A stretch of DNA of 64,000 bases from an uncultured Gammaproteobacteria bacterium (GCA_963764725.1 CAVXTM010000018.1:224001-288000), one strand, 5' to 3'; shown: positions 29,520-45,033, counted from the stretch's first letter. Translations and numbers: made by a program. The notes: generated by a model from the letters alone, not told the origin.

Positions 29520-30662
29520 TTGATGTCCGCGCACTCCGGCGTCCGGCATGCGACTGCCTACGGGAATCCATCCAAGCGCGACAGACCGGTGCTGGTGACA
29601 GGCGCTTCGGGCCACCTCGGCGCCAATCTGGTGCGCCGGCTGCTCGATGAAGGGTATCCGGTCCGTGTTCTTCTGCGCGAGGGTAGCGATAGAGCCGCCG
29701 TGGAAGGCTTGGCGGTCGAGCGCGTTTTCGGCGACCTGCGGGACTTTCCCGCCACCCGTGCCGCCGTCGCCGGGTGCGGAAGGATCTATCACTGCGCGGC
29801 CAAACTCTCGACCATCGAGGGGGATGCCCGGCACCAGCGGGAGATCTATGAATGCAACGTGATCGGGACGCAGCAACTGTTGCGCGCGGCGCGCGAGGCA
29901 TGCTTAGAACGGGTCGTTGTCACCGGTTCCTTCAGCGCCGTCGGGTACGAACTCGACGCACCCTCCGCGCCGAGCAATGAAACCATGCAGTTCTATCCCT
30001 TCGAGCGCAGCATGCCTTACGAGCGCTCCAAGGTCCTGGTCGAGCACGAATGCCTGAAAGCTGTCATCGACGGCCTCGATGTCGTGGTGGCTACGTGTTG
30101 CGCCATCATCGGCGGCAATGATTTCCGGCCCTCGCGCCTGGGCCGGACCCTGTGCGACTTTGTCAACGGGAACCTCCGCGCTTACCTCCGCGGCGGCTTC
30201 GAATTCGTGGCGGCACGCGATATCGTGGAAGCTCACCTGCTCTGCATGGACAAAGGCCGGACGGGACACAAGTATATTTTTAGCACGGAGTTCCTGATGC
30301 TCGACGAGCTCCTCGATTTGTTCACGGAGATCTCGGGTGTGGCGGGCCCCCGCCGCCGCCTTCCGGCACCTCTGATGCTGGCCTGCGCCGAGATGGCGAG
30401 CGCCTACCTAAGCCGCTTCCACCCCGGCGTTCAGCAGCGTTTGACGCCGGGCGCTATCCGCTTGCTGCGCAAATGCCGGCACGCCGATCTCACCAAGGCC
30501 CGCACCGAGCTCGGCTACCGGCCGACGAGCATCCGCACCGCGGTGGAGGAAGCATACGCTTTTCATTATGCGCGGGGCGCTATTCATCATGCCGCGGCGC
30601 GGGCGCCAAGCCGCCCGGCCGGTAGCGAACCAGCGGTGGCCCACCGCATGGCCTTGCCCTAG
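29520..30662 (+). CDS. Extended SDR / 3-beta-HSD-like enzyme, probable sterol C-4 decarboxylase/reductase (SdmB-like)
   Basis: VTGASGHLG, YERSK catalytic motif; adjacent to a Rieske oxygenase in the sterol operon. Confidence 0.75.
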   Translation: MMSAHSGVRHATAYGNPSKRDRPVLVTGASGHLGANLVRRLLDEGYPVRVLLREGSDRAAVEGLAVERVFGDLRDFPATRAAVAGCGRIYHCAAKLSTIEGDARHQREIYECNVIGTQQLLRAAREACLERVVVTGSFSAVGYELDAPSAPSNETMQFYPFERSMPYERSKVLVEHECLKAVIDGLDVVVATCCAIIGGNDFRPSRLGRTLCDFVNGNLRAYLRGGFEFVAARDIVEAHLLCMDKGRTGHKYIFSTEFLMLDELLDLFTEISGVAGPRRRLPAPLMLACAEMASAYLSRFHPGVQQRLTPGAIRLLRKCRHADLTKARTELGYRPTSIRTAVEEAYAFHYARGAIHHAAARAPSRPAGSEPAVAHRMALP

Positions 30663-31812
30663 ACCTGAGGCTGCGACGATCAGCGGACAGCGCCTTCCAG
30701 CCAACTCTTCTCCGCCTACCTTCGCGGAGGCTCGCAATGCGCGCCAAAAAGTCCGTGCGGCCGGTCTGGATCCGAACTACTGGTATGCGGTGGAGATCGA
30801 TGAGCGCATCCTGCCAGGCCAGGTAACCGAGGTGGTATTCTGGAAGCGTTCCATCGCTCTCTTCAAAGGCCGGGACGGACGCGTGCGGGCGATCGAGAAC
30901 CGCTGTGCGCATCGCCAGTTGAAGCTGTCGCTGGGCGGAGTCGATGACTGCCAACTGGTGTGCCTCTATCACGGCTGGACATACGACGGGGAGGGGCGCG
31001 TGGTCCGCATTCCCCACGATCTATTCGGGCGGCGCATGCCGGAGTTTCGCATCGCGAGCTTCCCCGTGCGCGTGCGCTATGGGCTCGTGTGGCTATTTCC
31101 GGGCGATCCGGCCCTGGCCGCGGAACGGCCGATCCCGGAAATCCCGGAGCTCGAAGGACCGGATCGATGGGCCTGTCGGCCGCTCAGTTTCATCTGGCGC
31201 GCGCATCATTCCATGATCATCGATAACGTCAGCGATTTCACCCATGCACACTTGCACCGCAAGTACCGCCCGTTCGACGATGCGCGCCTGGTCCGCTGTG
31301 AAACTGCCGGTGACAGCGTTCACGTAGCCTACGACACCCGCGTGGGACGGGGCCGGATCTCCGGATTGTTCGTCGACCGCGACCGGATCAACACCAACCA
31401 CATGCGGCTCTGCTACCAGTATCCTTACCAGTGGTCCAACACAGATGACAAGATCAAGCACTGGCTGTTTGTCCTCCCTATCGACGAGCGCACGACGCGG
31501 ACTTTTTTCCTGTTCTATTTCGAGTCGCTCAAGATCCCGTGGACGGCGGTCCGCATCCCGCGCGCAGCCATGGATTTTGTACTGAGGCTCGCTAACCGCA
31601 TGCTGATTGCACCGCTATTGGACCAGGATCGCGGCGCGGTCGAGGCTGAGCAGGAAGGCTACGAAGTGCACTGGGACGCGCCGATCGCGGAGATCAACCC
31701 AGCCGTCCGGGCCTTCCAGGAGGTCACCATCCGAAAATGGCAGGCCCATCTCGACCGCTTAGCGCCGCAAGCGAGTGTCCGCGCAACGCCAACCATGCAG
31801 CGAGCTCCGTAG
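30589..31812 (+). CDS. Rieske non-heme oxygenase, probable sterol C-4 methyl oxidase (SdmA-like); start uncertain
   Basis: CAHR...CLYHGW Rieske motif, DNVSDFTHAHLH Fe site; sterol operon context. Confidence 0.78.
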   Translation: MPRRGRQAARPVANQRWPTAWPCPRPEAATISGQRLPANSSPPTFAEARNARQKVRAAGLDPNYWYAVEIDERILPGQVTEVVFWKRSIALFKGRDGRVRAIENRCAHRQLKLSLGGVDDCQLVCLYHGWTYDGEGRVVRIPHDLFGRRMPEFRIASFPVRVRYGLVWLFPGDPALAAERPIPEIPELEGPDRWACRPLSFIWRAHHSMIIDNVSDFTHAHLHRKYRPFDDARLVRCETAGDSVHVAYDTRVGRGRISGLFVDRDRINTNHMRLCYQYPYQWSNTDDKIKHWLFVLPIDERTTRTFFLFYFESLKIPWTAVRIPRAAMDFVLRLANRMLIAPLLDQDRGAVEAEQEGYEVHWDAPIAEINPAVRAFQEVTIRKWQAHLDRLAPQASVRATPTMQRAP

Positions 31813-31826
31813 AGGCCTGCACGTAG

Positions 31827-32918
31827 ATGAGCAGCCTGAACACTGGCACCAGCTTGGAGGCCCTGGCCGGAGTCTCGGCCTTCGTGATTCTCTTGTTCGT
31901 CGGCTCGCGGCTGCTTCCGGGCCCGGAAGCACAGGGCGCGCCGCTACCCTCGGGCGGGCGACTCGCCTACCGCCTAAATGGACTACGGGTCTTCCTCCTG
32001 AGTGCTCTGGCGGCGGCGCTCGGGCAGCTACTCGGCTGGTGGTCCCTGTCCGTACTTTACCACCAGTTTCTGTCGATTTTTCTCGCGGCCAATATGTTTG
32101 CATTCGTGCTCACGGGAATCGTATTCCTCCGCGGCAAGCCGCCGTCCGCGCAGAAGGGTCAAAATCCTCTGGCGGAGACCTTGCGCGGGCTGTTCCTCGG
32201 CATCGAGTTGAACCCGCGGCTCGCCGGCGTCGATCTCAAGCTCTTCAGCTATCGTCCGTCGCTAATCGGGCTCGCGTTGCTCAATGCTTCGTTCGCCGTC
32301 GCGCAGTACGAGATTTACGGGACACTGTCCGGCGCAATGGCTCTGTATGAGATCTTCACCCTGATCTATATCGGCAACTACTTTCAATTCGAACACGGCA
32401 TGCTCTATACCTGGGACATTGTCGCCGAGCGTTTCGGTGGGATGCTCATCTGGGGTGATTACGTGCTCGTCCCCTTCTTCTATTCCCTGCCGGGCTGGTT
32501 TCTCATCCACCGGCTCGATCCCCTGCCGGCCTCTGCCGCGGTTGCCCTCACGGCGCTGTTCCTCTTCGGCTTCTGGCTGTTCCGCGGCGCCAATGAGCAG
32601 AAACACCGTTTCAAGGCCGACGCCAGCGCTCGGATTTGGGGGCGGCCCGCCGAGACTCTTGGCGGCCGGTTGCTGGTCTCTGGCTTTTGGGGCATCGGGC
32701 GGCATCTCAATTATTCAGGCGAGATTTGCATCTACCTGGCCTTCGCGCTCACTACCGGCTTCGATTCGGTCCTACCCTATTTGCTTCCGGCCTGGCTCAT
32801 CGCGCTCTTGATCCACCGCGCCCGGCGCGACGAGCGCCGCTGCTACGCGAAATACGGGACGCTCTGGACCCAATACACGCAAAGGGCACGCTTTCGCATG
32901 CTACCCTTCGTCTATTAA
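31827..32918 (+). CDS. ERG4/ERG24-family sterol reductase (probable Delta14-reductase)
   Basis: G.ELNPR, DLKLF, DIVAERFGGML.WGD, LLVSGFWG..RH.NY.GE, RARRDE.RC..KYG. Confidence 0.88.
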   Translation: MSSLNTGTSLEALAGVSAFVILLFVGSRLLPGPEAQGAPLPSGGRLAYRLNGLRVFLLSALAAALGQLLGWWSLSVLYHQFLSIFLAANMFAFVLTGIVFLRGKPPSAQKGQNPLAETLRGLFLGIELNPRLAGVDLKLFSYRPSLIGLALLNASFAVAQYEIYGTLSGAMALYEIFTLIYIGNYFQFEHGMLYTWDIVAERFGGMLIWGDYVLVPFFYSLPGWFLIHRLDPLPASAAVALTALFLFGFWLFRGANEQKHRFKADASARIWGRPAETLGGRLLVSGFWGIGRHLNYSGEICIYLAFALTTGFDSVLPYLLPAWLIALLIHRARRDERRCYAKYGTLWTQYTQRARFRMLPFVY

Positions 32919-32921
32919 CTC

Positions 32922-34316
32922 ATGGAACCCCAAGCTTATCCCGTCGCCACCGACACGCTTCCCCCCAGGCCGATCCCGCGAGTGCGCGGCGGACTGCCCG
33001 TGCTGGGCCACGCTCTGGCCTTTCAGCGTGATCCGCTGAGCCTGCTGGAGCAGGCCTGGCGGGCGCATGGAGAGGTGTTCCAGTTCCGGCTTGGCGGGCG
33101 CGAGGTCGTTATATTTGCCGGACCCGAGGCCCACGATGCTTACTTCCGCGCCCCGGACGATCAGTTGGGCGCGCGCGAGGTCTATCAGTTCACGGTCCCA
33201 ATCTTCGGCAAGGGTGTTGCTTACGATGTCGCGCCCGAGCGCATGGCCGAGCAACTGAGCTTCCTCGCGCCCCTGATGCGGGGCGGACCCATGCACGCTT
33301 ATGCCCGCCTCATAGATCAGGAGATCAAAGACTACACCGCAAGATGGGGGGACGAAGGCGAGATCGACCTCCCGGTGGTCACCAACGAGCTGACGGTGAA
33401 CATCGCCAGCCGCTGCCTGCTTGGGGAGGAGATCCGCACGCGTCTCGATACCGGCTTCGCCCGCCTGTACCACGATCTCCAGCGAGGAATCAATACCTTG
33501 GGGTTCTTTTTTCCGCGCCTGCCGATCCCTGGCCATATACAGCGAGACCGGGCCCGCCGCCAAGTGGCCTCCCTGATGCGCGGCATCCTAGCCGAGCGGC
33601 GGCGAACCGGCACGCGCCCGGGCGACTTCATGCAGGCGCTGATGGAAGCGCGCTATACCGATGGCAGTGCGCTCGGCGATGAGGAAATCACCGGCCTCTT
33701 GCTCACCGTGCTGTTCGCGGGTCAGCACACGAGCAGCGTGCTCGCGGCCTGGGTCGGAATCGATCTGCTGCGGCACCGCCAGTACCTGGCCGCGGTCCTG
33801 GCCGAGATCCAGGCCGTTTATGGCGAGGGCCAGACCTTAAGCCTGGATACGCTGAAGAGCCAATTGGCGCTGGAGCACGCCGTCCGTGAAGGCGAACGCC
33901 TGCATCCGCCGCTCATCCTGCTGGTGCGCAAGGCCCTCGGAGACATCGAGTATCACGGCTTTCGCATTCGAGCCGGGACCCTGGCCATGGTCTCGCCGGC
34001 GCTCTCGCACCGTCTGCCCACGGTCTTCAAGGACCCCGAGCGCTACGATCCGGATCGTTTCGGCCCGCCGCGCGAGGAACACAAGCAAGGGACCCATGTG
34101 CTGATTGGCTTTGGCGGCGGCCGGCACCGTTGTCTCGGGATGCACTTCGCGTACATGCAAGTCAAAGCCCTGTGGAGCCTGTTACTGTCGCGCTTCGATC
34201 TCGATCTGATCTCCCCGCCGCCCGCACCGGATTATGGAAGCTGGGTCACCGGACCACGGCCGCCGTGCCGGGTTCGGTACCGGCGCCGCCCCGTATCGCT
34301 CGGCCCCAACCTATGA
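32922..34316 (+). CDS. cyp51: Sterol 14-alpha-demethylase, cytochrome P450 CYP51
   Basis: Y.F..PIFGKGV.YD, AGQHTS I-helix, EGER (ExxR), FGGGRHRCLG heme motif. Confidence 0.92.
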   Translation: MEPQAYPVATDTLPPRPIPRVRGGLPVLGHALAFQRDPLSLLEQAWRAHGEVFQFRLGGREVVIFAGPEAHDAYFRAPDDQLGAREVYQFTVPIFGKGVAYDVAPERMAEQLSFLAPLMRGGPMHAYARLIDQEIKDYTARWGDEGEIDLPVVTNELTVNIASRCLLGEEIRTRLDTGFARLYHDLQRGINTLGFFFPRLPIPGHIQRDRARRQVASLMRGILAERRRTGTRPGDFMQALMEARYTDGSALGDEEITGLLLTVLFAGQHTSSVLAAWVGIDLLRHRQYLAAVLAEIQAVYGEGQTLSLDTLKSQLALEHAVREGERLHPPLILLVRKALGDIEYHGFRIRAGTLAMVSPALSHRLPTVFKDPERYDPDRFGPPREEHKQGTHVLIGFGGGRHRCLGMHFAYMQVKALWSLLLSRFDLDLISPPPAPDYGSWVTGPRPPCRVRYRRRPVSLGPNL

Positions 34317-37300
34317 CAAGGTCGAGGGTCCCACACTTCGACGTCGCCGTGGTTGGCGCGGGACCGGTCGGCGCGGTCGCGGCCCTGGCCCATGCGCGCC
34401 GCGGGGCACGGGTCGCACTGTTCGAGGCCAATCCGAGATCGGCGCAACGTTTGGCCGGAGAGTGGCTGCATCCCCCAGCCATAGAGGTACTGCGACAGAT
34501 CGGCATCGATTTGCCCACCGCGATCCCGGAGCACTCGGCCGGTCAGGGTTTTGTGGTGTTTCCGGACGACGGTTCCTCGCCCTGCCTGCTGCCCTATGCT
34601 GGCGGGGCACCGGGACTCAGTTGTGAGCACAGCGCGCTGGTTGGGACCCTGCGAGCCGCCGCCGCCGCGCACCCCAATGTGGACTATCTGACTTCGGCAC
34701 GGGTGCGCCGTATCGAGGATCACAGCGTACGCTATGTGCAGCGGGGTGGAGTGGGCTCGATCGTGGCCGGCCGCATTGTGGGGGCGGATGGACGCCGCTC
34801 CATTGTCCGCGCCAGCCTCGGCCTGCCGGTCGATCACGCCATCTGCTCGCGTATGGTCGGCCTATTGCTTCGCGACGTGGAGCTCCCGTTCGAGGGTTTT
34901 GGGCATGTGTTACTCGGTGGCCCCGGCCCGGTCCTTGCCTACCGCATCACCCCGCATGAAGTGCGCCTGATCCTGGACGTACCTGTGCACCGCCGCGGAC
35001 GCCAGGAGCGCGCGGCTTACCTGTGGGAGGGCTATGCGGCAGTCTTGCCCAGCGCCCTGCGGCCGGGCTTTCGCGCGGCCCTCTTGGAGGGAGCCTTCGA
35101 GGGCGCCGCCAACGAAATCAGGGCGCGCAGTGACTACGGCCGCGATCACGTGTTTCTTGCCGGAGATGCCGTCGGCCATCACCATCCCTTGACCGCGGTC
35201 GGGATAACCCTGGGCTTCGGCGATGCTCTGTGCCTAGCCGAGTGCCGGGATCCGGCGGATTATCGGTCTCGCCGGCGCCAGGCCACGCGGGTCGCCGAGC
35301 TGCTGGCCGTGGGCCTCTATCAGGCGCTGACCGAGAGCAGCGAAGAAGCCGACGCCACTCGCCAAGCCATTTATCGGATGTGGCGCAAGAGCAACGCTGA
35401 ACGCACGCGCACGATGCGCTATCTCGCCTGCCAAGACACGCGGACCGCCCTGTTTGCGTGCTCTTTTGTCCGTGCCATCGCCCATGCCCTGTCAGCGATC
35501 GTCAGCGAGGCGCTATGGCGTAGCGAGTGGTCTCATGCGGCAACGGTGGCCCGGGCGCTGGGCGGGCGCCTGCACTGGCTCCTGCGCGGGATCCTACCCA
35601 CCCAATCCGGCCGCGCCTGGGCTCTCGCGCCGGAGGGTCATGGGAAAGGAACCGCGTCCGCGCCCATCGTGGGCGACGCCGGCCCCCGGCTCGTGGCAGA
35701 GGATAATAAAGAGCTAGAGGATACCGAAGCCGGCCCGGCACTTAGACTTGCTGTCACCGCGCTCATTCGCCAGCAGTCGCCGGGCGGCGGCTGGGAGGGA
35801 GAGGTCATCTGGTGCCCGATGCTGGCGGCGCAGTACGTGCTCATGTGCCATATCACCGGCGTCTCGATCGCGCCTGGGCGAAAGGCGTCTCTGTGCCTTC
35901 ACTTCCGCCGCACGCAATTGGCCTCCGGACTCTGGGGCCTGCACCCGCAGTCCTCACCCTACCTCTTCGTGACTGTCCTCGTTTATGTCGCCGTGCGTCT
36001 GTTAGGGGTGAACCGGGAGGATCCTCTGCTCGGCCCCGCGGCCCGGTTCATCGCGGCCGAAGGCGGGGTCACGGCCATCCCGAGCTGGGGTAAGTTCTGG
36101 CTCGCGCTGCTGAACCTCTATGATTGGGACGGCCTCAACCCGCTGCCGCCCGAGGCCTGGCGGCTGCCCCGCTGGATGCCCTTGCACCCGGGCCGGTTCT
36201 ACTGCCATACCCGGCTCATCTACCTGGCGATGAGCGTGATCTACGCGTCTCGCTTTCAGACACCCTGCACACCCGTGATCGAGGCCTTGCGCACGGAGTT
36301 GTACCCCTTGGGTCATAAGCACGTTGGCGCGAGTCGCAGGGCGCTGCGGCCGGGGGATCTGGTTGCGCCCCCGACGCTCTGGCTTCGAGGGCTCTTTGCG
36401 CTCGGTGCGCTCGTGGAGCGCTGGCACCCTGCCGTGCCGCGGCGGACCATCGTCGAGCGGCTGCGCGAGCGGATCCGCTGGGAGCTGCGGACGACCGATC
36501 ACACCAGCATCTCGCCGGTCAGCGGTTTACTCAATATGATCGCACTCTGGATCCACGACCCCGGAGACCCCGATCTGCTCCGTGCGTACGCCCGCTTCGA
36601 AGGCTGGATTTGGGAAAATGATAAGGCGGGGACGCGGGTTACCGGCGCGCGCAGCGCCTCCTGGGACACCGCTTTTGCGGTGCAGGCGCTGGCGGTCGCC
36701 GGGGTGCATCCCGGTTCCGGGGAGGCCAAGGCACGGGGCGTGGCCTTTCTCCGCAGTCAGCAGATCCGGCAGACGTTCGGCGGGATCGACGAGAACTTCC
36801 GGATCGACCCCAAGGGCGGATGGTGTTTTGCGGGCGTGTGGCACGGCTGGCCGGTGAGCGACTGCACGGCCGAGGCGGTGCTGGCGCTGCTCGCGGCCCC
36901 CGGAGCGCCGCCGGACCCGGAAGCCCTCGGCGAGGCCGTTGCGTTTATCCTGCGCTGCCAGAACACCGACGGCGGCTTTGGCACTTACGAGGCGAGCGGC
37001 ACGCGCTGGGCGCTGGAATGGCTCAACCCCGCGGAGATGTTTGCCGACTCCATGACCGACCGTTCCTGGGTCGAGTGTACAGCCTCCTGCATCGCCGCTC
37101 TCGCCGCGGTCGGGGAACGCTGTCCGGATCTCATGGCGCCAGCGATCGAACGCGCCATCGGGCGCGCGGCGCGCTGGGTTTATGCCAGCCAGCGGTCCGA
37201 CGGAGCGTGGCCCGGAGCCTGGGGGGTGTACCTCATCTACGGTACCTTGTTCGGCGTGCGCGGCCTGCTGGCCGCGGGCACACCGGTCTATCACCCTTCC

Positions 37301-37687: not shown

Positions 37688-37725
37688 TCGCCGACGCCAT
37701 TATCTGTGCTTACGTACAGCAGCTT

Positions 37726-37844
37726 GGATTCCAACCCAATGCGTCTAATATTCATTGTGGACCTCCTCGCTCGTTGCTTGGAAACAGATTCGACTTCCAT
37801 TCTGGCACATCGATGCCGAAGAGTCGGGGAGGTTCATGTCATTC
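37726..37844 (-). mobile_element. IS110-family (IS1111 group) left-end remnant
   Basis: Subterminal IR-like ATGAACCTCCCC (37826-37837), GAGGAGG SD and truncated transposase start MNIRRIGL at 37755. Confidence 0.55.
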
Positions 37845-37867
37845 GTTAACGCCCTCGGAGAGTACTG

Positions 37868-39137
37868 ATGTCATTTCCAGCACATGTGTTCCGGGTTCTG
37901 ATCGCTTCGCCCTCCGACGTGACTGACGAGCGAGAGATCGCAGTGCGCACCATCCAGGAGTGGAACGACCTGAACGCCGCCGAGCGGCAGGTGGTTATTC
38001 TGCCGATCCGCTGGGAGACGCATTCTGCGCCCGAGTACGGCAAACGACCCCTGGAGATCATTAACCAACAAATCGTTGACCATGCGATCTTCTGGTAGGT
38101 ATCTTTTGGACTAAAGTTGGAAGTCCCACCGGCGTTGCGGACAGTGGGACGATCGAAGAGATTGAGCGGGTTGCGCTGAACGGAAGACCTGTGATGCTCT
38201 ATTTCTCCCAGACGAAGCAAGACCCAGACAAGATCGATATAGAGCAACTCAGTAAGCTGCGAGAGTTCAAGAAGAAGACGTTCCCCAACGCTCTCATCGA
38301 AACCTACTCCGATCCCACTGAGTTCAAGGGGACTTTGTCTCGACAGCTTGAGCTGCAGCTGAGGACTCTCTTGGCTGCCGAAATGGGGGGCGCTTCGGAG
38401 GATTCAGCTGTCCCTCCAGTGACCGACATTGTCCTCCACTTCGCGGACGCTGAGAGTGGGAAGGACATTGGGACAACACTTGCGCTTGAGGCGCGCTTTA
38501 TCGAAGTGACCAATTTCGAGGACGTACCAGAGTACGTGCCACCTGAGGAAAAGCGCAATGCCTTGGCAGCCGCTTTGACAGCAGAGGCTGCAACAGCAGC
38601 GACTACCTCTCCACTCTATACTCGGGACCCAACAAGAACTACTTCCGCCAGCTCATAACCTATCACGTCGTCCAGAGCTTTTTCCGGCCCATTCGATTCT
38701 GGCTAACGAATCGCGGAGGTGTAGGAGCGCGGGATGTCTATCTCGACATCAACATACAGTCGAAATCGCGAAACCTGGTTGTCCTATCCAAGGATAGTGT
38801 TCCCACTACTCCGCCTTCCAAGACTGGATCGACCATTGGACTTCTCTCGACCACACACCCCACAAAGCCAGAGGAGGTAATCCGAACTCCTGGTGATAGC
38901 TGGCGCACGCAGATGGAGTTTAAAGCCCTCCAACCCAAGAGGGAGATCAGCCCCATTGCACGGTTTGTGATTGGTGCAAAGGAAAGCTGCGATGTCACCA
39001 TCGCTGCCAGAATTTATGCGGACACGCTGGCGGAGCCAGTTGATCAGGAACTGCAACTTCGATTGAATGTTACCCGCCTATCAATCAAGGCGGAGGAGGT
39101 TATGCAAGATATCGCGGGGCAGTCCAGCGAGCGCTAA
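37868..39137 (+). pseudogene. DUF4062/NDT-like domain gene in a probable integron cassette, two frameshifts
   Basis: RVLIASPSDV..ER, RWE, IFWT..GSPTG...SGT.EE spread across shifted frames; the stop codon overlaps the attC R'' site. Confidence 0.6.
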
Positions 39138-39227
39138 CCTGCCGTTCAGCCGGAGCGCCCAAGAGCGGCGCTCTTGGGTTCCCGTCGCGCTTCGCGCGAC
39201 GGCGCCCGGTTAACGGCGGCGTTTAAG
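39132..39227 (+). repeat. attC recombination site
   Basis: CGCTAAC-CTGCCG-TTCAGCCGG ... CCGGTTAA-CGGCGGC-GTTTAAG imperfect hairpin with an unpaired C; matching GTTAACG core at 37845-37851. Confidence 0.65.
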
Positions 39228-39391
39228 CCGCTGGGCGGTTGCGAATACCTTGTCTCCTGCTCGGACACACGAAGGCCCTAGTTAGTGAACGCCGCAGACA
39301 AGATTGCTCTCGCATCTGCCGCTTTTGCCGCAGCGAGCTTTCTCGCCGCCCTGCTTGTCTACTTGGCTCAGCCCGCGACCGCACAAGTATC

Positions 39392-39421
39392 GTAGGTCGG
39401 GTTAGCGCAGCGTAACCCGAC
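39392..39421 (+). repeat. GTAG-type REP element
   Basis: GTAG-GTCGGGTTA-GCGCAGCG-TAACCCGAC hairpin beside a RAYT fragment. Confidence 0.7.
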
Positions 39422-39434
39422 AAACCCAATCGGA

Positions 39435-39650
39435 TCATTCATACCCTATTCCTTCAAAATCCATCGCACCCCGTCCCCAATCCGCCGGATAAACCTCAGC
39501 CTCGACATATCGGCGAAAGCTGGAATACGGCCATTCCATCGCGGATGCAACGAGCCCGTGCTTTACCGGGTTGAAATGAACGTACTCGACATGCCGGGTA
39601 AAATCGGCTTCATCCCGCAACGCATGTTCCCAATAGCGATGTTGCCATAG
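39435..39650 (-). pseudogene. C-terminal fragment of a REP-associated tyrosine transposase (RAYT)
   Basis: LWQHRYWEHALRDE.DF.RHVEYVHFNPVKHGLV....WPYSSF. Confidence 0.8.
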
Positions 39651-39730
39651 GCGGCGCCTACCCTACCAAACTACATCACCGGTTTCATCCGCTAGCGGCA
39701 TCGCGAGGAACGGCCCACCCATACAAGTGG

Positions 39731-40024
39731 TCAGGCCGCGAGCTTCAACTCAACCTTGAGTCCGGCGCGGGTGGCGAGGGTGATGAGCATGTCCAGGCTG
39801 AACTTGTCCCACTTGCCTCGCACCAGATCAGAGACGCGCGACTGCCCGATCCTAAGTCGCTCCGCCGCCTCCGTCTGAGTCCAACCATGCTCCTCTATCA
39901 AAAGTCGCAGGCGCGCCATGAGGTCGGCCCGCATTGCTAGGATAGCTGCTTCTTCGGGTGGGAAGCCTAGATCGAGAAACACATTGCCGGAAGATTCGGT
40001 TATGCGTATGTCATCGTCGTGCAT
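39731..40024 (-). CDS. XRE-family HTH antitoxin (HigA-like)
   Basis: SSGNVFLDLGF, TQTEAAERL.IGQSRVSDL..GK..KFSLDML. Confidence 0.88.
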   Translation of the reverse strand: MHDDDIRITESSGNVFLDLGFPPEEAAILAMRADLMARLRLLIEEHGWTQTEAAERLRIGQSRVSDLVRGKWDKFSLDMLITLATRAGLKVELKLAA

Positions 40025-40027
40025 GAC

Positions 40028-40342
40028 TCAACCCCCTATCCCCTGGTAACGCCTGCGTGCCAACTCGATATCTTGCCGGCGCGTGCGCCGCGTTTTCTTC
40101 TGGAAAGCATGGAGTACATAGACCGCCTCTGCAAACTTGGCCACATAGATGACGCGCCACTCGCCGAGCACATGGACGCGGATCTCGTAGACGCCAGGTC
40201 CCACGTCCGCCATGGGTTTCGAGTCGGAGGGTGTCGCCCCGTGCTGGACTTGCCACAATTCGAATCCCGCTGCCCGCCGGGCTTCCGCAGGAAAGGCACA
40301 CAGATCGTCATGGCTAGCCCCGACGAACTTGAGTGGCTTCAT
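40028..40342 (-). CDS. RelE/HigB-like (Gp49-type) toxin
   Basis: MKPLKFVG.S.DDL..FP, GVYEIRV, RVIYVAKF.EAVYVLHAFQKKT; toxin-first order. Confidence 0.88.
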   Translation of the reverse strand: MKPLKFVGASHDDLCAFPAEARRAAGFELWQVQHGATPSDSKPMADVGPGVYEIRVHVLGEWRVIYVAKFAEAVYVLHAFQKKTRRTRRQDIELARRRYQGIGG

Positions 40343-40349
40343 TAAGGAC

Positions 40350-40378
40350 ATTATCCAAGTATTTTGATACCCGCTCAA
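40350..40378 (-). promoter_or_regulatory. TA promoter with palindromic operator; probably leaderless
   Basis: TTGAGC-17 nt-GATAAT, 7 nt before the ATG; imperfect palindrome TATCAAAATACTTGGATA overlapping the spacer and -10. Confidence 0.55.
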
Positions 40379-41102
40379 GGCGCATATCGGCGGGATTGCC
40401 TGTGCCGGTACCTCAAGGCATTTTAGTCCCTTATCCATGAAATCTTGTGCAAAAAAGCAAAGAGTGTCATGCATGAGCGGTATTGAGAGCAGGCATGACT
40501 ACATACTCTCGGATAGCGAGTGCGCTGCTGAGCACACGACGACCGAATGTCGTGAGGTAGTACTTGTAGCGATGTCCAATCTTTTTGATGAGGCCATGGG
40601 TGCGCAAGCGTTTCAACCAGTAGGAGGCACGGCCGGTGGAGAGATCCCGGAGATGGGCTCGGAGATCGGAGGCGCGAAAGCCGCTGATGTTCCACTCCCC
40701 GCGGGCGAGGGTGATAAAAAGGCTATGATCTTCACGGAGGAAGAGATTGAAGCCCCGATAGGAGCGGTCTTTCTCTCGTACAGGTTTGGCCATTTTGTCG
40801 ATGGCGTGCAGAGCTGCATTGGGGTTATCGATGCTGGCCATGAAGCTGAGATAGCGTTCATTGGCAGCATGCATCAGCTCTCGCAGATCGGGGAGGCTAT
40901 AGATGTTTTTTCGCAGGGGTGCGAGTTTGAATTGCTTGCGCCCATTGCGTTGTTCCACCCAACGGTGGTGTTTGAAGAAGGAGACATCGTTGGCGGTGCA
41001 TTCCACCCGAGCCATGAGACTGAATTTATCGTAGAGCTTGAGGCTTGCTGGTCCCATATGATGGCGGATGCGTGTACCCTGAATGCGGGTGTGAAAATCG
41101 TT

Positions 41103-42481
41103 GAGGTACCATCAAAGGGTGTGTAAAAAGGTGAAGGCGATGTACCCTTTCTGTAGTAATTAACAAAGAACGGGCTGGCAGGCCCGAGAGAAAGGAGCAC
41201 ACCGCCATGAAGAAGCAAAGCACCGAAGGAGTGGGTAGGTCAAGTGTGGTATGGGAGAATCTCGAGGAATGGGTCCGTGGGCGGATTCAAGGGTATTTGC
41301 AAGATCTGCTCGAAGAGGAAGTCACCGTGTTCTTAGGGCGAGAGAAATCGGAGCGTCGGGCGGAGATAGACGGCCCGGGCGGGTACCGCAATGGGTATGG
41401 GAAGGTACGGAAGTTGGGCCTCAGCTGTGGGACGGTGGAGCTTGCGAGGCCGCGGGTGCGAGGGGTGGAGGAGCGCTTTGAGAGCAGGTTGTTGCCTTTA
41501 TTTGTCCGCCGCACGGAGACGGTGGCGGAGTTACTTCCCACGTTGTATCTCCATGGGTTATCCCTGGGCGACTTTGAGCTTGCGCTGCGGGGGCTGCTCG
41601 GGGATGGGGCGCCGCTTTCGGGGGGTTCGGTGGCGCGGCTGAAAGCGAAGTGGGCGGGGGAATATGCGCTTTGGAATCAACGGCCTCTCGCGGAGTTGGG
41701 GGTCGTTTATTTGTGGGTAGACGGGGTGTATGTCAAGGCGGGATTGGAGAAGGAGAAGGCCGCGCTCTTAGTGGTCGTGGCGGGCCTGAGCGATGGGCGC
41801 AAGGCCTTTTTAGCCATCACCCCCGGGTTTCGGGAATCCACCGAGAGTTGGTCGGCGGTGTTACGGGATTTGAAGAAACGTGGCCTACGTGCACCGCGCC
41901 TGGTGGTCGGTGATGGACATCTGGGGATTTGGGGTGGACTGGCCGAGGTGTATCCCGAGGCCGAGGAACAGCGCTGTTGGAATCATCGCATTTTAAACCT
42001 CTTGGATAAGCTTCCGAAGAAACGCCAGGCCGAAGCGAAAGCGCTGCTCTGTCCGATCCCCTATGCCCCTACCCGCCAAGAAGCGGAGAAGGCCAAAGCG
42101 ACCTTCCAACGCTGGTGCCGTCAACAAGGCTTCCAAGCCGCCGCTGAGCTTCTCGATCACGACTGGGAGCGCATGGTGGCGTTCTACCGCTATCCCAAAG
42201 AACACTGGATCCACTTGCGAACCACCAATCCGATCGAATCGCCCTTCGCCGCTGTGCGGCTACGTACCAATGCGGCCAAGCGGTTCAAGAAAGTCGATAA
42301 CGCCACCGCCCTGATCTGGAAAATCATGATGGTCGCTGAAACGACTTTCCGCCGGCTCAACGCCACCGAGCTACTGAAAGACATCTATAACGGCGTCGCA
42401 TTCGCCGATGGAATACGAACAAATAATGACACCATCAGAAAGGCCGCCTGAACTTATTTACACACCTCTTGACGGAAGCTC
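41103..42481 (+). mobile_element. Intact IS256-family insertion sequence
   Basis: Imperfect 28-bp IRs (GAGGTACCATCAAAGGGTGTGTAAAAAG / GAGCTTCCGTCAAGAGGTGTGTAAATAA); 8-bp target duplication AAATCGTT at 41095-41102 and 42482-42489. Confidence 0.93.
41207..42451 (+). CDS. IS256-family transposase
   Basis: GYRNGY, YLWVDGVY, VGDGHLG, QRCWNH, RTTNPIES. Confidence 0.95.
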   Translation: MKKQSTEGVGRSSVVWENLEEWVRGRIQGYLQDLLEEEVTVFLGREKSERRAEIDGPGGYRNGYGKVRKLGLSCGTVELARPRVRGVEERFESRLLPLFVRRTETVAELLPTLYLHGLSLGDFELALRGLLGDGAPLSGGSVARLKAKWAGEYALWNQRPLAELGVVYLWVDGVYVKAGLEKEKAALLVVVAGLSDGRKAFLAITPGFRESTESWSAVLRDLKKRGLRAPRLVVGDGHLGIWGGLAEVYPEAEEQRCWNHRILNLLDKLPKKRQAEAKALLCPIPYAPTRQEAEKAKATFQRWCRQQGFQAAAELLDHDWERMVAFYRYPKEHWIHLRTTNPIESPFAAVRLRTNAAKRFKKVDNATALIWKIMMVAETTFRRLNATELLKDIYNGVAFADGIRTNNDTIRKAA

Positions 42482-43527
42482 AAATCGTTACCGGCCTCCC
42501 CGCTGAAGGCCGAGGTGAGTTTGCGTCCCAAGAAGGTGGCGACGTGTTCTGCCTTGAGGGCATGCACGGCGGTACGCACGATGGCTTGATAGAGGGGTTG
42601 GAAATCGGCTTGGCGGTGGAAGATGACATCGGTCGAGAAAGCCAGGGCCAGGGAGTGGCCCTGCTTGGCGCGCCGAGGATGCAACTCCACCTGCATGAAG
42701 CTCCAGTGATAACCAGCGCGAAACTGACCCAAGATAGGACAGAAGCTTTTCGCCCATCGGTCCAAACGCCGATGCAAGCCTTTGGGATCGAGGCTATCGG
42801 CAAGCGCCTGAGCCTGTTGGGGATCGCCGATGGACAAGAAGGCATTATCGGCGCGCTCAAAGGCGATCCCTGTCTTGGTCAGTCGTTGGGCTAACCAGTG
42901 ATGGCCGTTCAAATAGACCTGCAGGCGAAACGGTGCCCAGGTGGGTACTCGGACATAACAGAGCCCGAAGATCTCATCGATGAAATAGAAGTAATAATGC
43001 AAACACTTGCCCGGGGTAGACTTCAAACGGGTCGTATGCTGAAGCTTGTCATGCCAGGGGCGATACGAAGGACAGGCCTCCATCGCCGAGAAGATATGCA
43101 CCAGCCCCGGGTGCTCACCGCGCAAAGCCAAAATCGCTTTGATCCGTTCTTCTTTACGAAACGCCTTGTAATGACGGATGAATTCAATTTCCAACGAAGC
43201 CTCAGCGGCCAGCCGCTCGGCATGGGGTCCGAAGCGCCTCGCGCAGCGGTTCTGCCCAGCGGGGATAGTCAAACAGACGCATACCCCGGACACCCAAATA
43301 CCGGGCCATAGCCTCGGCATGGGCGATCTCCGGAAGCGTGCCAGTGATCACGATGCGGTCAAAGCAACAAAGCACCGCGGCGATCTTCGCTTGATGGCGT
43401 TCAACAAAGGGAGTTCATGGCGACGACCCATCTCAGTTCTTATTGCCCATCCGCCAGAATAGTACATTCAACACTTTGGTTCCGGCTATGCCGGGTTAGG
43501 ATTCTTAGATCGACTGAGACCGACTTT

Positions 43528-45033
43528 TCACACCGGCCGTTTCACCTTGTCGTAGGTATCCATGAAGACACCTTCCGCCTGGTATTTCTGCCTGACGCTG
43601 TCATAGAGGGAGCAGTCGAACATCCGGCGATATTCATCGCGAGTCAGTTCCGATACCGCGTACAGACACTGGTAACCGCCATGCGCTATCGCGAAAGCCT
43701 CCATCCCGCGGACGGCGCGCCGAGAATCGTAGGGCTCGCCGCGTCGAACCGCCCCCGGGGCACCGTAAACACCGACATCCACGAACATCTCCTCGTCGCA
43801 GGCTTCCTGGGACGGCTTCAAGAACCCCTGAGGCTGGGTGCGGAATGTCCGGTGCGGACAAAGCCACAGCGGGTAGCACTCGAAGTTCGTGTGGAAAAAC
43901 TCGATTGTTTCCGTAAGGTGCCTGATCGGCACCAGCATGTCCTGACACACGTGCCGGTCCTCATAATAGGCGCGGATCGACTCGCCCTGGGTAAGTTTTA
44001 GAAAAGAAACCTTGGGCGGCATCATCCATCCGAGGAGGTAACGGAACAGAAGATGATTGCCGAACGGGATGATGAGCTCCCCTTCCCAGAAGATACTGCG
44101 CGTGTGCCGATGGTAGTACTGCCGCAGGGGAATAGACTCCTCGCCGCCGCCTCGCTCCACGAACGACTCGCAGTGTTTGTAAAACCATGGCTTGAACCAC
44201 CAGCCGATGGCATTCACTTTGGAGTGGTCCGGGCCGGCGGCGAAATCGCCGGTCATGATTACACCGGAGTCCCGGCCGTACAGAATGCCCTCGACAAACT
44301 CGGGCGGATCCGGACGGCAAACCTCCCGGGCGAACACCTCGCAGGCCTCGTTGAGGCTATGAACAGGGTGATAACCGAGTCGCACCCAAGGCTTGCAAGG
44401 GATGATGCGCAGCTCCACTGCGACCAGGATGCCCAGCGCCCCGTACGACCAGGGCAGGGCATGGAATAGATCCGCATGGACCTCGCGGGTAGCGCGAACG
44501 AGCGTGGCGTCCCCTATCACCACCTCGCAAGCCTCGACGATATCGGCGAACAGCCCGTACTTGTGGGATGAGCCTTCGATGCCGAATCCCAGGATTAACC
44601 CACTGACCGTTAAATCGTCGAGCTCCGGGACCACCGGCAAGGTCCATCCCTTGGGAACGAGATAACGGGTGAGCTGGCCGATGGTCGCTCCGGGCTCGAC
44701 CCGGAGGATGGCCCGTTCCGTATCGATTGCCAGGATATCGTAGAGATTGACCCGGATGGTGTTGTCGCGGCGCTTGTAGCGGGCGATCCGCATCGAGACG
44801 TTCATCCAGGATTTGCGCGCCGTGCAGAGGGGCTGCCGGCCGCCGGCTGTTCGCCACTGGCGCACCTGTGCTTGGATATCGCGCACGCGCTCCGTGTGCC
44901 CTTCGGGGGCGCTCTTCAAGCCTCGGTAGTACCAGTTCCGGATAGCCCAATAGAGGTCGAACAGCACCGACAGGGGCAAGACTACGAGCACTACGAACAG
45001 CCAGCGATATCGGACTAGTACATCGGTCAGCAA
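43528..45033 (-). CDS. Delta24-sterol reductase (DHCR24/DWF1-like FAD oxidoreductase)
   Basis: LCTARKSW, VVPELDDLTVSGL..G.GIEGSSHKYGLF, IPLRQYYHRHTRSIFWE, YPLWLCP; TTG start. Confidence 0.9.
   Translation of the reverse strand: MLTDVLVRYRWLFVVLVVLPLSVLFDLYWAIRNWYYRGLKSAPEGHTERVRDIQAQVRQWRTAGGRQPLCTARKSWMNVSMRIARYKRRDNTIRVNLYDILAIDTERAILRVEPGATIGQLTRYLVPKGWTLPVVPELDDLTVSGLILGFGIEGSSHKYGLFADIVEACEVVIGDATLVRATREVHADLFHALPWSYGALGILVAVELRIIPCKPWVRLGYHPVHSLNEACEVFAREVCRPDPPEFVEGILYGRDSGVIMTGDFAAGPDHSKVNAIGWWFKPWFYKHCESFVERGGGEESIPLRQYYHRHTRSIFWEGELIIPFGNHLLFRYLLGWMMPPKVSFLKLTQGESIRAYYEDRHVCQDMLVPIRHLTETIEFFHTNFECYPLWLCPHRTFRTQPQGFLKPSQEACDEEMFVDVGVYGAPGAVRRGEPYDSRRAVRGMEAFAIAHGGYQCLYAVSELTRDEYRRMFDCSLYDSVRQKYQAEGVFMDTYDKVKRPV

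What the first reader, a model, noticed from the sequence alone, without database searches (positions are those of the whole stretch)
29520..45033. Compact sterol-biosynthesis gene cluster in a pmoCAB-bearing bacterium
Seen: five tightly linked genes (SDR, Rieske oxygenase, ERG24-type reductase, CYP51, SQE-OSC fusion) plus a convergent DHCR24. Known: these cover squalene epoxidation, cyclisation, C-14 demethylation and reduction, bacterial SdmAB-type C-4 demethylation and Delta24 reduction. Sterol synthesis is rare in bacteria, and Methylococcus capsulatus has separate SQE and OSC and a ferredoxin-fused CYP51, unlike here. No squalene synthase, Delta8-7 isomerase or C-5 desaturase is in the window. 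Inference: the products would be side-chain-saturated 4-methyl (or desmethyl) Delta8-type sterols. If the host is a USC-gamma-like soil or cave methanotroph, this may be an undescribed sterol pathway and lipid biomarker source.
Basis: partly seen in the sequence, partly recalled or inferred. Interest (0 to 1): 0.88.

Follow-up and report, generated by a model that had tools for sequence, protein, structure and literature searches.

The report
Sterol operon in atmospheric methane oxidiser
An uncultured soil and cave bacterium that lives on atmospheric methane carries an intact set of genes for making sterols, of a type already seen in sponge-associated bacteria but apparently not yet remarked on in this lineage.

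Summary
Window 29520-37687 (+) holds a tightly packed operon: SdmB-like SDR, SdmA-like Rieske oxygenase, ERG24-type C-14 reductase, CYP51, and one 1124-aa squalene epoxidase::oxidosqualene cyclase fusion. A convergent DHCR24 homologue lies at 43528-45033. It sits 17 kb from pmoCAB on a 716-kb contig. The closest named records are USC-gamma MAGs (USCg_Taylor, Lehman Caves, Frasassi). Three of them share the pcnB, tRNA-Glu, operon junction, so the contig is not chimeric there. All six genes are intact and under purifying selection (dN/dS 0.12-0.27). The "undescribed pathway" reading is overstated. The same colinear five-gene cassette occurs in 53 of the 80 best fused loci, across at least five phyla, mostly sponge-symbiont MAGs. 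The literature already describes such "clusters of steroid genes" and mentions fused SMO/OSC. The enzymatic steps are those known from Methylococcaceae. What seems new is the host: no searched paper links USC-gamma with sterols. The cassette resembles the sponge-symbiont type (about 60% identity) more than Methylococcales enzymes (about 42%). The 5.8-kb gap before DHCR24 is a toxin-antitoxin pair plus nested insertion sequences. Verdict: a new member of a known kind, of moderate interest.

The parts
28835..28910 (+). tRNA-Glu(CUC). Conserved left border of the operon, downstream of pcnB (27420-28730, -).
   Evidence: ARAGORN, Rfam. The same tRNA lies between pcnB and SdmB in L023, L024 and L025. 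No tRNA-derived direct repeat lies beyond the cluster.
29520..30662 (+). SdmB-like NAD(P)-dependent SDR: C-3 dehydrogenase/decarboxylase-reductase partner for C-4 demethylation.
   Evidence: Pfam Epimerase and 3Beta_HSD. NF052578 SdmB 307.9 bits, below the cut-off of 600 but above HpnA at 237.5. GxxGxxG at residue 28 and YxxxK at residue 167. dN/dS 0.13-0.19.
30568..31812 (+). SdmA-like Rieske oxygenase (4-methylsterol monooxygenase). The true start is probably downstream of 30568.
   Evidence: Rieske plus VanA_C. NF052579 398.3 bits, below the cut-off of 600. It is the only strong copy in the genome. The family match starts at residue 58. Rieske CxH...CxxH at residue 113.
31827..32918 (+). 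ERG24-type sterol C-14 reductase.
   Evidence: ERG4_ERG24 263.9 bits. Best solved relative is 4quv, Delta(14)-sterol reductase, E 2e-78. It is the only real family member in the genome. RHLNY motif at residue 292.
32922..34316 (+). CYP51 sterol 14-alpha-demethylase, without a ferredoxin domain.
   Evidence: p450 only. The 57 best solved relatives of 58 listed are CYP51 / sterol 14-alpha-demethylases. Heme motif FGGGRHRCLG at 397 and GQHTS at 267.
34313..35602 (+). Squalene epoxidase (SQE/SMO) domain of the fusion protein, residues 1-430.
   Evidence: SE and FAD_binding_3. Human SQLE 6c6n E 2.4e-23. The model matches 6c6r with TMt 0.84. GAGPVG, DGRRSIVR and GDAVGHHHPLT motifs.
35603..35725 (+). 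Disordered linker of the fusion protein, residues 431-471.
   Evidence: AlphaFold2 pLDDT below 50 over residues 431-471.
35726..37687 (+). Oxidosqualene cyclase domain of the fusion protein, residues 472-1124.
   Evidence: SQHop_cyclase_N and _C. TIGR03463 681 bits. Human OSC 1w6k E 1.6e-131, with VSDCTAE conserved and Val at the position of human V453. Model TMt 0.85 to 1w6j.
37688..43527 (.). Accessory insert between the operon and DHCR24. It holds gene fragments, a HigA/HigB-like pair (39731-40024 and 40028-40474, both -), and a ~1.7-kb multi-copy element (40423-41102 plus 42482-43500) that is itself split by a 1379-bp Mutator/IS256-family IS (41103-42481, transposase 41207-42451 +).
   Evidence: HTH_37 and Gp49. 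Transposase_mut 180.8 bits. Repeat copies elsewhere in the genome. In L017/L106 and L026, DHCR24 follows the fusion gene directly.
43528..45033 (-). DHCR24-type sterol Delta24 reductase, convergent with the operon.
   Evidence: FAD_binding_4. 50-61% identity at 99-100% coverage to proteins named delta24-sterol reductase or 24-dehydrocholesterol reductase-like. Protein-atlas lead at 0.98. Present in 10 of 10 other genomes of the family that were searched. dN/dS 0.14-0.19.

Best explanation
This is a functional sterol-biosynthesis locus of a USC-gamma (genus USCg-Taylor) atmospheric methane oxidiser.

Proposed pathway (inferred from family functions):
1. Squalene comes from an SQS-like enzyme encoded beside the hopene cyclase on the same contig.
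2. The N-terminal domain of one 1124-aa protein epoxidises squalene.
3. Its C-terminal cyclase domain cyclises the product. Val at the human-V453 position predicts lanosterol.
4. CYP51 removes the 14-alpha-methyl group.
5. The ERG24-type reductase saturates Delta14.
6. The SdmA/SdmB pair removes a C-4 methyl. One methyl is the likelier outcome, because the genome has a single SdmA and SdmB.
7. DHCR24 saturates Delta24.

The predicted products are 4,4-dimethyl- and 4-methyl-cholesta-8-enols, with or without Delta24, made alongside hopanoids.

The five operon genes are one translationally coupled unit. They belong to a cassette that moves horizontally among bacteria and is best known from sponge symbionts. 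The USC-gamma family probably acquired it before its genera split. DHCR24 was joined to it separately.

Shown here: gene identities, intact frames and motifs, conservation, purifying selection, cassette distribution. Inferred: each catalytic step, the products, and the horizontal origin.
For: Identities:
- Pfam, NCBIfam and PDB matches.
- Motifs are intact.
- The OSC catalytic VSDCTAE is present, with Val at the human-453 position. The V453 = lanosterol rule comes from the PMC4919349 passage.

Genuineness:
- The locus is inside a 715,629-bp contig that also holds pmoCAB and SHC.
- The same pcnB, tRNA-Glu, five-gene order occurs in L023, L024 and L025 at 91-96% amino-acid identity.
- The fused gene is in 7 of 8 other same-genus genomes.
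- DHCR24 is in 10 of 10 other family genomes searched.

Selection: dN/dS is 0.12-0.27 for all six genes. The one exception is 0.33, on an 87-codon remnant in L026.

Fusion protein:
- AlphaFold2 gives pLDDT 86 and pTM 0.88 over the whole chain, with only residues 431-471 disordered.
- The two halves match human OSC and SQLE.

Cassette and origin:
- 53 of 80 loci are colinear.
- Cluster GC is 0.655 against 0.594 for the genome, in the top 1.3% of 4067 windows.
- None of 26 other-family genomes of the class had an OSC-level match. The best were SHC-like at 27-30% identity.
- Identity to the Methylococcales-derived solved CYP51 and C-14 reductase is about 42% (hand count). Medians to sponge-type cassettes are 60-61%.

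Squalene and hopanoids: SQS-like, SHC (819 bits) and HpnG.

Weak hint of expression: contigs of a relative about 94% alike from one metatranscriptomic library cover 29 of 30 bins.
Against: - No lipid or enzyme data exist for this lineage.
- SdmA and SdmB score well below NCBIfam's equivalog cut-offs (398 and 308 against 600), so C-4 demethylase activity is inferred from homology and cassette context only.
- No redox partners (ferredoxin or reductase for CYP51, SdmA and SQE) were identified.
- The C-14 reductase aligns only from residue 91 of the 427-residue solved homologue.
- Of the three OSC product-determining positions, only V453 is of the lanosterol type. The other two are Ala and His.
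- In this genome, mobile DNA separates DHCR24 from the operon by 5.8 kb.
- The RNA-library contigs do not prove transcription, as the tool itself warns.
- Horizontal origin rests on composition, distribution and identity levels. No named Methylococcales sequences were in my tree.
- No att-like repeat flanks the cluster.
Confidence: 0.7

Rival explanations
1. The cluster works, but the end products differ from the Methylococcus-like 4-methyl sterols. Possibilities are full C-4 demethylation (cholest-8-enol or zymosterol-like), parkeol or another cyclisation product, or accumulation of lanosterol.
For: - Two of the three OSC product-determining positions are not of the lanosterol type: Ala for T381 and His for C449.
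- SdmA and SdmB are divergent from the characterised Methylococcales proteins.
- Three FA_hydroxylase proteins of unknown role exist elsewhere in the genome.
Against: - In the bacteria tested, V453 correlated completely with lanosterol (PMC4919349 passage).
- The genome has a single SdmA and SdmB, whereas one M. capsulatus pair removes one methyl (PMC10202945 passage).
- The FA_hydroxylases give only weak OlsE-like matches of 53-87 bits.
Confidence: 0.17
2. The pathway was inherited vertically from a methanotrophic gammaproteobacterial ancestor shared with Methylococcales, and was not acquired as a mobile cassette. The fusion and the loss of the ferredoxin domain are then lineage-specific changes.
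For: - Both lineages are pMMO-bearing Gammaproteobacteria with the same set of enzymatic steps.
- The best solved relative of the CYP51 is the Methylococcus-type entry, 380.8 bits against 348.9 for the next group.
- No att repeat or integrase lies at the cluster.
- All three genera of the family carry the cluster.
Against: - Identity to sponge-type cassettes of other phyla is 60-68%, against about 42% to the Methylococcales-derived solved enzymes.
- Order and spacing of the genes match cassettes in Chloroflexota, Nitrospirota, Acidobacteriota and Rhodothermota.
- The OSC domain nests in the clade of fused proteins, away from most stand-alone bacterial OSCs.
- The cluster's GC is an outlier.
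- The cluster sits at a different genomic place in the sister genus (L114).
Confidence: 0.15
3. The cluster is an assembly or binning artefact, or a decaying relic that makes nothing.
For: - Mobile elements lie next to the cluster.
- One related record (L026) has only a 90-residue remnant of the C-14 reductase and a fragmented DHCR24.
Against: - The contig is 716 kb and also holds pmoCAB.
- Three named MAG records have the identical junction.
- All frames are intact, with dN/dS of 0.12-0.27.
- Catalytic motifs are kept.
Confidence: 0.03

Closest known systems
'Clusters of steroid genes' (CSGs) of sponge-symbiont bacteria (Kelly et al. 2022, PMC9531527) and the sterol gene clusters of sponge-symbiont metagenomes (Brown et al. 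2023, PMC10070321). I saw passages only.
   Same: - Same gene order: ERG24, CYP51, then LSS.
- In my own comparison, SdmB and SdmA lie upstream at the same spacing in 50 non-USC-gamma loci.
- The SMO/OSC fusion is shared (for the literature mention, for the loci).
- Identities to the window are 53-68% (medians).
   Different: - The host is a free-living soil and cave methanotroph, not a sponge symbiont.
- No sterol methyltransferase was found, although the control for that search rang nowhere.
- A DHCR24 at 50-61% identity to eukaryote and myxobacterial types is linked here. Only 3 of 80 loci had a DHCR24-like gene nearby, at 40-43% identity.
Methylococcus capsulatus / Methylococcaceae sterol pathway (SMO, OSC, CYP51fx, C-14 reductase, SdmA/SdmB, BstABC transporters).
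   Same: - Both hosts are pMMO methanotrophs that also make hopanoids.
- The enzymatic steps are the same, so the expected 4,4-dimethyl and 4-methyl sterols are the same (passages in PMC4919349, and PMC10942540).
   Different: - SMO and OSC are fused here.
- CYP51 lacks the ferredoxin domain.
- SdmA and SdmB fall below the Methylococcales equivalog cut-offs.
- Identity to the solved CYP51 and C-14 reductase is about 42%. The organism of those entries is recalled, not given by the tool.
[quoted passage not shown] Bst homologues elsewhere in the genome were not tested.
Myxobacterial sterol/cholesterol pathways (Enhygromyxa salina, PMC10202945). I saw passages only.
   Same: Uses SdmA/SdmB-type C-4 demethylation. 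DHCR24-family proteins from Myxococcales MAGs are 55-58% identical to the window's.
   Different: No ERG25-27, EBP or further desaturation-modifying genes were found here. The SMO/OSC fusion and the compact five-gene operon also differ.

Membership tests
Bacterial sterol cassette of the sponge-symbiont ('CSG') type: SdmB-SdmA-ERG24-CYP51-SMO::OSC | Colinear gene order and orientation, with the ERG24-CYP51-cyclase core. | tested here: met
   The same order and spacing occur in 53 of 80 loci, 50 of them outside USC-gamma. The ERG24-CYP51-LSS order is described in PMC9531527.
Bacterial sterol cassette of the sponge-symbiont ('CSG') type: SdmB-SdmA-ERG24-CYP51-SMO::OSC | Squalene epoxidase and oxidosqualene cyclase in one polypeptide. 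| tested here: met
   A single open frame of 1124 aa. 119 of the 120 best listed homologues are of fused length, 1086-1168 aa, and carry both sets of domains; the other is a 644-aa partial. The OSC domain lies inside the clade of fused proteins.
Oxidosqualene cyclase (lanosterol-synthase type) | Catalytic Asp in the V-x-D-C-T-A-E motif, and Val at the human-453 position. | tested here: met
   Alignment to 1w6k shows VSDCTAE conserved and Val at position 453, but Ala at 381 and His at 449. The rule is from PMC4919349. TIGR03463 scores 681 bits, below its subfamily cut-off of 851; TIGR01787 scores 500, above its cut-off of 323.
CYP51 sterol 14-alpha-demethylase | P450 fold with heme-ligand Cys and the CYP51 I-helix signature; closest relatives are CYP51s. 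| tested here: met
   FGGGRHRCLG and GQHTS motifs (the signature wording is recalled). The best 57 of the 58 listed PDB matches are CYP51 entries.
Methylococcales-type SdmA/SdmB (NCBIfam equivalogs NF052579 and NF052578) | Score at or above the curated equivalog cut-off of 600 bits. | tested here: not met
   SdmA scores 398.3 and SdmB 307.9 bits. They are homologues, not members of the Methylococcales equivalog. Function is inferred from homology and from cassette context.
Methylococcus-type sterol system | CYP51 fused to a C-terminal ferredoxin (CYP51fx). | tested here: not met
   464 aa with a p450 domain only. The alignment to the 551-residue chain 6mcw ends at chain residue 450.
Methylococcus-type sterol system | bstABC sterol-transporter genes co-localised with osc/sdmAB. 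| tested here: inconclusive
   The flanks hold pcnB, a tRNA, a toxin-antitoxin pair, ISs, DHCR24, a redoxin-like gene and an acyltransferase. The RND pump at 50999-54088 scores as a multidrug type, with HpnN at only 29 bits. I had no Bst models or sequences to search with (searches were wrong guesses).
DHCR24 (sterol Delta24 reductase) | FAD_binding_4 domain in a protein of about 500 aa, with full-length similarity to named DHCR24s. | tested here: met
   FAD_binding_4 over residues 55-181. 50% identity to a fungal '24-dehydrocholesterol reductase-like protein', and 53-59% to many proteins that JGI names delta24-sterol reductase. No solved DHCR24 was available for comparison.
Any sterol-producing pathway | Sterol products detected. 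| not testable with these tools
   No culture or lipid data are available.

The most novel reading that the evidence does not exclude
Sterol synthesis was recruited twice, independently, by pMMO methanotrophs. Methylococcales carry their own system: separate SMO and OSC, CYP51-ferredoxin, and Bst transporters. The USC-gamma atmospheric methane oxidisers instead captured a horizontally mobile five-gene cassette with a bifunctional, substrate-channelling SMO::OSC enzyme, shared with sponge symbionts of many phyla, and then added a eukaryote/myxobacterium-like DHCR24. If so, sterols have a specific role in pMMO-bearing membranes. 13C-depleted 4-methyl sterols in dry soils, biocrusts and caves would then be a lipid tracer of the atmospheric methane sink.
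Probability: 0.35. Interest if true: 0.65.

Novelty: new member of a known kind. Interest (0 to 1): 0.45.

Why it matters
USC-gamma bacteria are uncultured yet are held to be major consumers of atmospheric methane in upland soils and caves. A complete, conserved and selected sterol pathway predicts a diagnostic lipid class (4-methyl and 4,4-dimethyl sterols, alongside hopanoids). That class could be followed by 13CH4 lipid-SIP or compound-specific isotopes where DNA-based tracking is hard.

The finding also adds a free-living, non-marine host to a cassette so far discussed for sponge symbionts. That matters for reading steranes as eukaryote markers.

The fused SMO::OSC is conserved across phyla. 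AlphaFold2 predicts it with a confident overall arrangement (pTM 0.88). I found no biochemical study of it, which makes it a tractable target for testing substrate channelling. None of this changes current concepts. It extends them to a new lineage.

Tried and rejected
- **Integrase-type island at tRNA-Glu.** No tRNA-derived direct repeat lies beyond the cluster; the only direct repeats were two chance-level families. I dropped the idea of a recent island insertion.
- **Promoter and terminator scans** of 28700-40500 gave counts at shuffle level: 3 against 2.4, and 12 against 7.9. They were not used.
- **Bst transporters.** I guessed the neighbouring NCBIfam numbers NF052580 and NF052577, hoping they were Bst models. 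They were an acyl-CoA synthetase family and a thiosulfate-transporter family. The Bst question stays open.
- **Sterol methyltransferase** (PF08498) was not found, but the control rang in no genome, so this is not evidence of absence.
- **FA_hydroxylase proteins** (3 loci) gave only weak OlsE-like matches. I could not assign or exclude an ERG3/ERG25-like role.
- **Solved structures for DHCR24.** Only distant FAD-linked oxidases matched, which was uninformative.
- **Read laying.**
  - All four runs are contigs, so they show no starts, ends, strand or expression level.
  - The bin 29004-29307, between the tRNA and SdmB, had no cover in the metatranscriptomic run X19. I draw nothing from that.
  - Small internal 'skips' in X17 and X12 contigs at 85% likeness probably come from other strains.
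- **The look-up of sequencing runs.** No run held half or more of the words. Shares of 0.24-0.43 in cave, soil and biocrust runs point to relatives, not to this strain. I name no habitat from shares I did not lay.
- **AU test.** It did not reject the sister genus's stand-alone OSC being sister to the nine nearest fused proteins (p 0.458). Its exact position is open. Only its exclusion from the larger fused clade is rejected (p 0.0004), and that group was named after I saw the tree.
- **Complex prediction** was not used: the two domains together exceed its 1000-residue limit.
- **Literature.** The supplements of PMC8237579, PMC10070321 and PMC9531527 were not seen. Their trees or tables may already list USC-gamma MAG sequences.

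Full report
**What is there.** Window 29520-37687 (+) carries five back-to-back genes (ORFs).
- An SDR: Pfam Epimerase 111 bits, 3Beta_HSD 57.6 bits.
- A Rieske oxygenase: Rieske 68.4 bits, VanA_C 48.7 bits.
- An ERG4_ERG24 reductase: 263.9 bits.
- A P450: 201.3 bits.
- One long frame with squalene-epoxidase and FAD_binding_3 domains followed by both squalene/oxidosqualene-cyclase domains (all Pfam).

NCBIfam names the first two as relatives of SdmB (307.9 bits) and SdmA (398.3 bits). Both fall below the equivalog cut-off of 600. The P450's best 57 of 58 listed solved relatives are CYP51s (E 8e-113 downwards). The reductase's best solved relative is a Delta(14)-sterol reductase (4quv, E 2e-78). 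The cyclase half matches human lanosterol synthase (E 1.6e-131), and the epoxidase half matches human SQLE (E 2.4e-23).

The fusion gene most likely starts at the ATG at 34313, which overlaps the CYP51 stop as ATGA. Gaps between the other genes are 3 and 14 nt. The SdmA frame overlaps the end of SdmB, and its true start is uncertain because the family match begins at residue 58. Catalytic and cofactor motifs are intact.

The convergent gene at 43528-45033 (-) has only a FAD_binding_4 Pfam match. It is nevertheless 50-61% identical, over about 100% of its length, to proteins that sources name delta24-sterol reductase, including eukaryotic ones. pmoCAB lies at 9078-12120 (-).

**Host and integrity.** The window is C18:224001-288000 of a 4.21-Mb, 19-contig, 97%-complete genome. 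The contig is 715,629 bp long. The closest named public records encoding the fusion are:
- 'Chromatiales bacterium USCg_Taylor' (91%),
- 'Lehman Caves 20pBin3' (93%),
- 'Frasassi PCtopBin12' (93%),
- 'Gammaproteobacteria bacterium SD8037' (91%).

A preprint places those cave MAGs and USCg-Taylor in USC-gamma, GTDB order JACCXJ01 (10.1101/2024.08.23.608578, passages). In L023, L024 and L025 the order pcnB(-), tRNA-Glu(CUC), SdmB, SdmA, C14R, CYP51, SQE::OSC matches the window at 91-96% amino-acid identity. The feared chimeric join at the tRNA is therefore excluded.

The fused gene is in 7 of 8 other same-genus genomes; the eighth is 89% complete. DHCR24 is in 10 of 10 other family genomes searched. 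Both counts include genomes flagged unpublished. All six genes show dN/dS of 0.12-0.27 against relatives.

**The gap before DHCR24.** The stretch 37688-43527 is accessory DNA. It contains:
- short gene fragments;
- a HigA/HigB-like pair (HTH_37 and Gp49);
- a ~1.7-kb element with ten or more copies in the genome (40423-41102 plus 42482-43500);
- a 1379-bp Mutator/IS256-family IS (41103-42481; four other full copies) that splits that element.

In L017/L106 (an unpublished handle), DHCR24 directly follows the fusion gene in convergent orientation. The public record L026 has the same arrangement in decayed form. The six genes were thus one locus before the insertions.

**Rest of the pathway in the genome.**
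- An SQS-like gene (TIGR01559, 97 bits, below cut-off), a squalene-hopene cyclase (TIGR01507, 819 bits) and HpnG lie at C18:344518-348358. That is about 83 kb downstream on the same contig.
- No EBP match was found.
- The genome has a single ERG4_ERG24 member and a single SdmA-like gene.
- No sterol methyltransferase was found, but that search's control was silent.
- Three FA_hydroxylase proteins give only weak OlsE-like matches.

**Mechanism.** The fusion protein folds with mean pLDDT 86 and pTM 0.88. Only residues 431-471 are disordered. Its halves superpose on human OSC (TMt 0.85) and human SQLE (TMt 0.84), and no solved entry spans both. A pTM that high is not expected if domains making up 38% and 58% of the chain floated freely. 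I therefore infer a defined interface that would hand oxidosqualene from epoxidase to cyclase. I had no PAE map, so this remains an inference.

Aligned to human OSC, the catalytic VSDCTAE is kept. Val stands at position 453, Ala at 381 and His at 449. These three residues are invariant in 65 fused proteins. In tested bacteria, V453 tracked lanosterol and I453 tracked cycloartenol (PMC4919349, passage).

The steps after cyclisation follow from the established functions of CYP51, ERG24, SdmA/SdmB and DHCR24. The predicted products are those reported for aerobic methanotrophs: 4,4-dimethyl- and 4-methyl-cholesta-8,24-dienol and -8-enol (PMC4919349, passage). Removal of a single C-4 methyl is inferred from the single SdmAB pair and from the M. 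capsulatus precedent (PMC10202945, passage).

**Comparison with what is known.** The fusion is common.
- 119 of the 120 best listed homologues of the fusion protein are 1086-1168 aa long and carry both domain sets.
- 463 stretches in the one-genome-per-species collection encode relatives. That scan used two motif patterns typical of this family.
- Among the 80 best loci, 70 have enough upstream DNA to show a cassette. Of the 80, 53 carry SdmB-SdmA-C14R-CYP51-fusion in the same order, orientation and near-identical spacing.
- By phylum the counts are Pseudomonadota 38/48, Chloroflexota 6/8, Nitrospirota 2/2, Acidobacteriota 2/2, Rhodothermota 2/2 and unassigned 3/7.
- Cyanobacteria (0/3) and Binatota (0/2) hold the genes rearranged.
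- Most record names point to sponge symbionts.
- Median identities to the window are SdmB 66%, SdmA 68%, C14R 61%, CYP51 60% and fusion 53%.

The literature already has this:
- Kelly et al. 2022 describe ERG24-CYP51-LSS 'clusters of steroid genes' in 115 of 537 Ircinia MAGs from 10 phyla, with signs of horizontal transfer. They suspected that unannotated SdmA/B lie within them (PMC9531527, passages).
- Brown et al. 2023 mention trimming 'fused SMO/OSC homologs' and show sdmAB-containing clusters (PMC10070321, passages).
- Hoshino and Gaucher state that most steroid-producing bacteria use SdmA&B (PMC8237579, passage).

The locus differs from the Methylococcus system in several ways:
- It has the fusion.
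- Its CYP51 has no ferredoxin domain (CYP51fx in the PMC7947880 abstract).
- Its Sdm scores are below the equivalog cut-offs.
- It is only about 42% identical to the solved Methylococcales-derived CYP51 and C-14 reductase (hand counts; source organisms recalled).
- No transporter genes lie beside sdmAB, whereas bst genes are said always to co-localise with sterol genes in sterol-producing methanotrophs (PMC10942540, passage).

**Origin.**
- Cluster GC is 0.655 against a genome mean of 0.594, in the top 1.3% of 4067 windows. DHCR24, at 0.604, is genome-like.
- None of 26 genomes from other families of the class had more than SHC-like matches at 27-30% identity.
- In a 56-row OSC-domain tree, the USC-gamma sequences sit inside a clade of 24 fused and 3 stand-alone proteins (SH-aLRT 97). 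That clade is apart from most stand-alone bacterial OSCs and from the eukaryote-length group.
- In the sister genus the cluster lies elsewhere in the genome.
- No att-like repeat was found.

I read this as an old horizontal acquisition by the family, with moderate confidence. No named Methylococcales sequences were in the tree.

**Is it in print for this lineage?**
- Searches for 'upland soil cluster' plus sterol gave 2 papers, and neither concerns USC sterols.
- 'USC gamma' plus sterol gave 0 papers.
- Searches combining Methyloligotroph, JACCXJ01 or USCg-Taylor with sterol or oxidosqualene found no paper joining a lineage name with either lipid term.
- Three USC-gamma genome papers contain no occurrence of sterol, hopan- or squalene (PMC13333085, 10.1101/2024.08.23.608578 and PMC12871462).
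- Supplements were closed and might list these MAGs in gene trees.

**Expression.** One metatranscriptomic library (X19) holds contigs of a relative about 94% alike, over 29 of 30 bins. These include contigs that bridge the SdmB/SdmA and the CYP51/fusion junctions. The tool warns that this does not show transcription. I count it as a weak hint only.

**Verdict.** This is a real, intact, conserved sterol locus in a USC-gamma methanotroph. It is a new host for a known cassette and a known pathway, not a new pathway. Interest is moderate (0.45). Its value lies in a testable lipid-biomarker prediction for atmospheric methane oxidisers, and in pointing to the uncharacterised SMO::OSC fusion enzyme.

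Noticed in passing
L114 (G011:C285) 12142-17459; L115 and L116 (G013): In the sister genus the epoxidase and cyclase are separate genes. Three inserted genes lie between them: a PNPOx/CREG/DUF2470 protein, a 125-aa ORF and a PIN-domain toxin. The stand-alone cyclases nest inside the clade of fused proteins. Excluding them from that clade is rejected (AU p 0.0004, with the group named after the tree was seen). This looks like a secondary fission of a fused gene.
   Followed up: partly
window 40423-41102 plus 42482-43500; intact copy at L121 (G000:C18:212347-214035): A ~1.7-kb element is present in ten or more near-identical copies across the genome. Its 520-aa ORF has no Pfam or NCBIfam match, so it may be an unclassified insertion sequence. 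In the window a 1379-bp Mutator/IS256-family IS interrupts it.
   Followed up: partly
L026 (record JBOGSE010000040.1) 2213-2473 and 7272-7964: A related fused cluster (72% identity) keeps only a ~90-residue remnant of the C-14 reductase, and its DHCR24 is broken into several frames. This may be pathway decay in that lineage, or poor assembly.
   Followed up: no
window 45165-47021 (+): A 618-aa protein joins an AhpC/TSA-redoxin N-terminus to a copper type II monooxygenase C-terminal domain, next to DHCR24. The adjacency recurs in one relative (L104, an unpublished handle). Its function is unknown.
   Followed up: no
window 39731-40474 (-): A HigA-like (HTH_37) and Gp49/HigB-like toxin-antitoxin pair lies beside a 61-aa fragment. 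From recall only, that fragment looks like the C-terminus of a REP-associated tyrosine transposase. It had no Pfam match.
   Followed up: partly
window 43528-45033 (-): Outside the USC-gamma group, one of the closest full-length relatives of the DHCR24 is a protein from a eukaryote data set (Mesostigma, 61%). It ranks ahead of Myxococcales MAG proteins (55-58%). This could be contamination of that data set or a real affinity.
   Followed up: no
window 9078-12120 (-): The pmoCAB genes pass NCBIfam's 'bacterial ammonia monooxygenase' AmoA/B/C equivalog cut-offs as well as the generic CH4/NH3 monooxygenase models. From recall, this fits the closeness of USC-gamma pMMO to Nitrosococcus AMO.
   Followed up: no
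G000:C12:350000-384000: A wrongly guessed family search revealed a run of very long open frames (1149-3069 aa) with adenylate-forming domains. This is probably a non-ribosomal peptide synthetase region.
   Followed up: no
window 40001-42000: A GC-skew spike (+0.19 against about -0.05 elsewhere) coincides with the nested insertion sequences.
   Followed up: no
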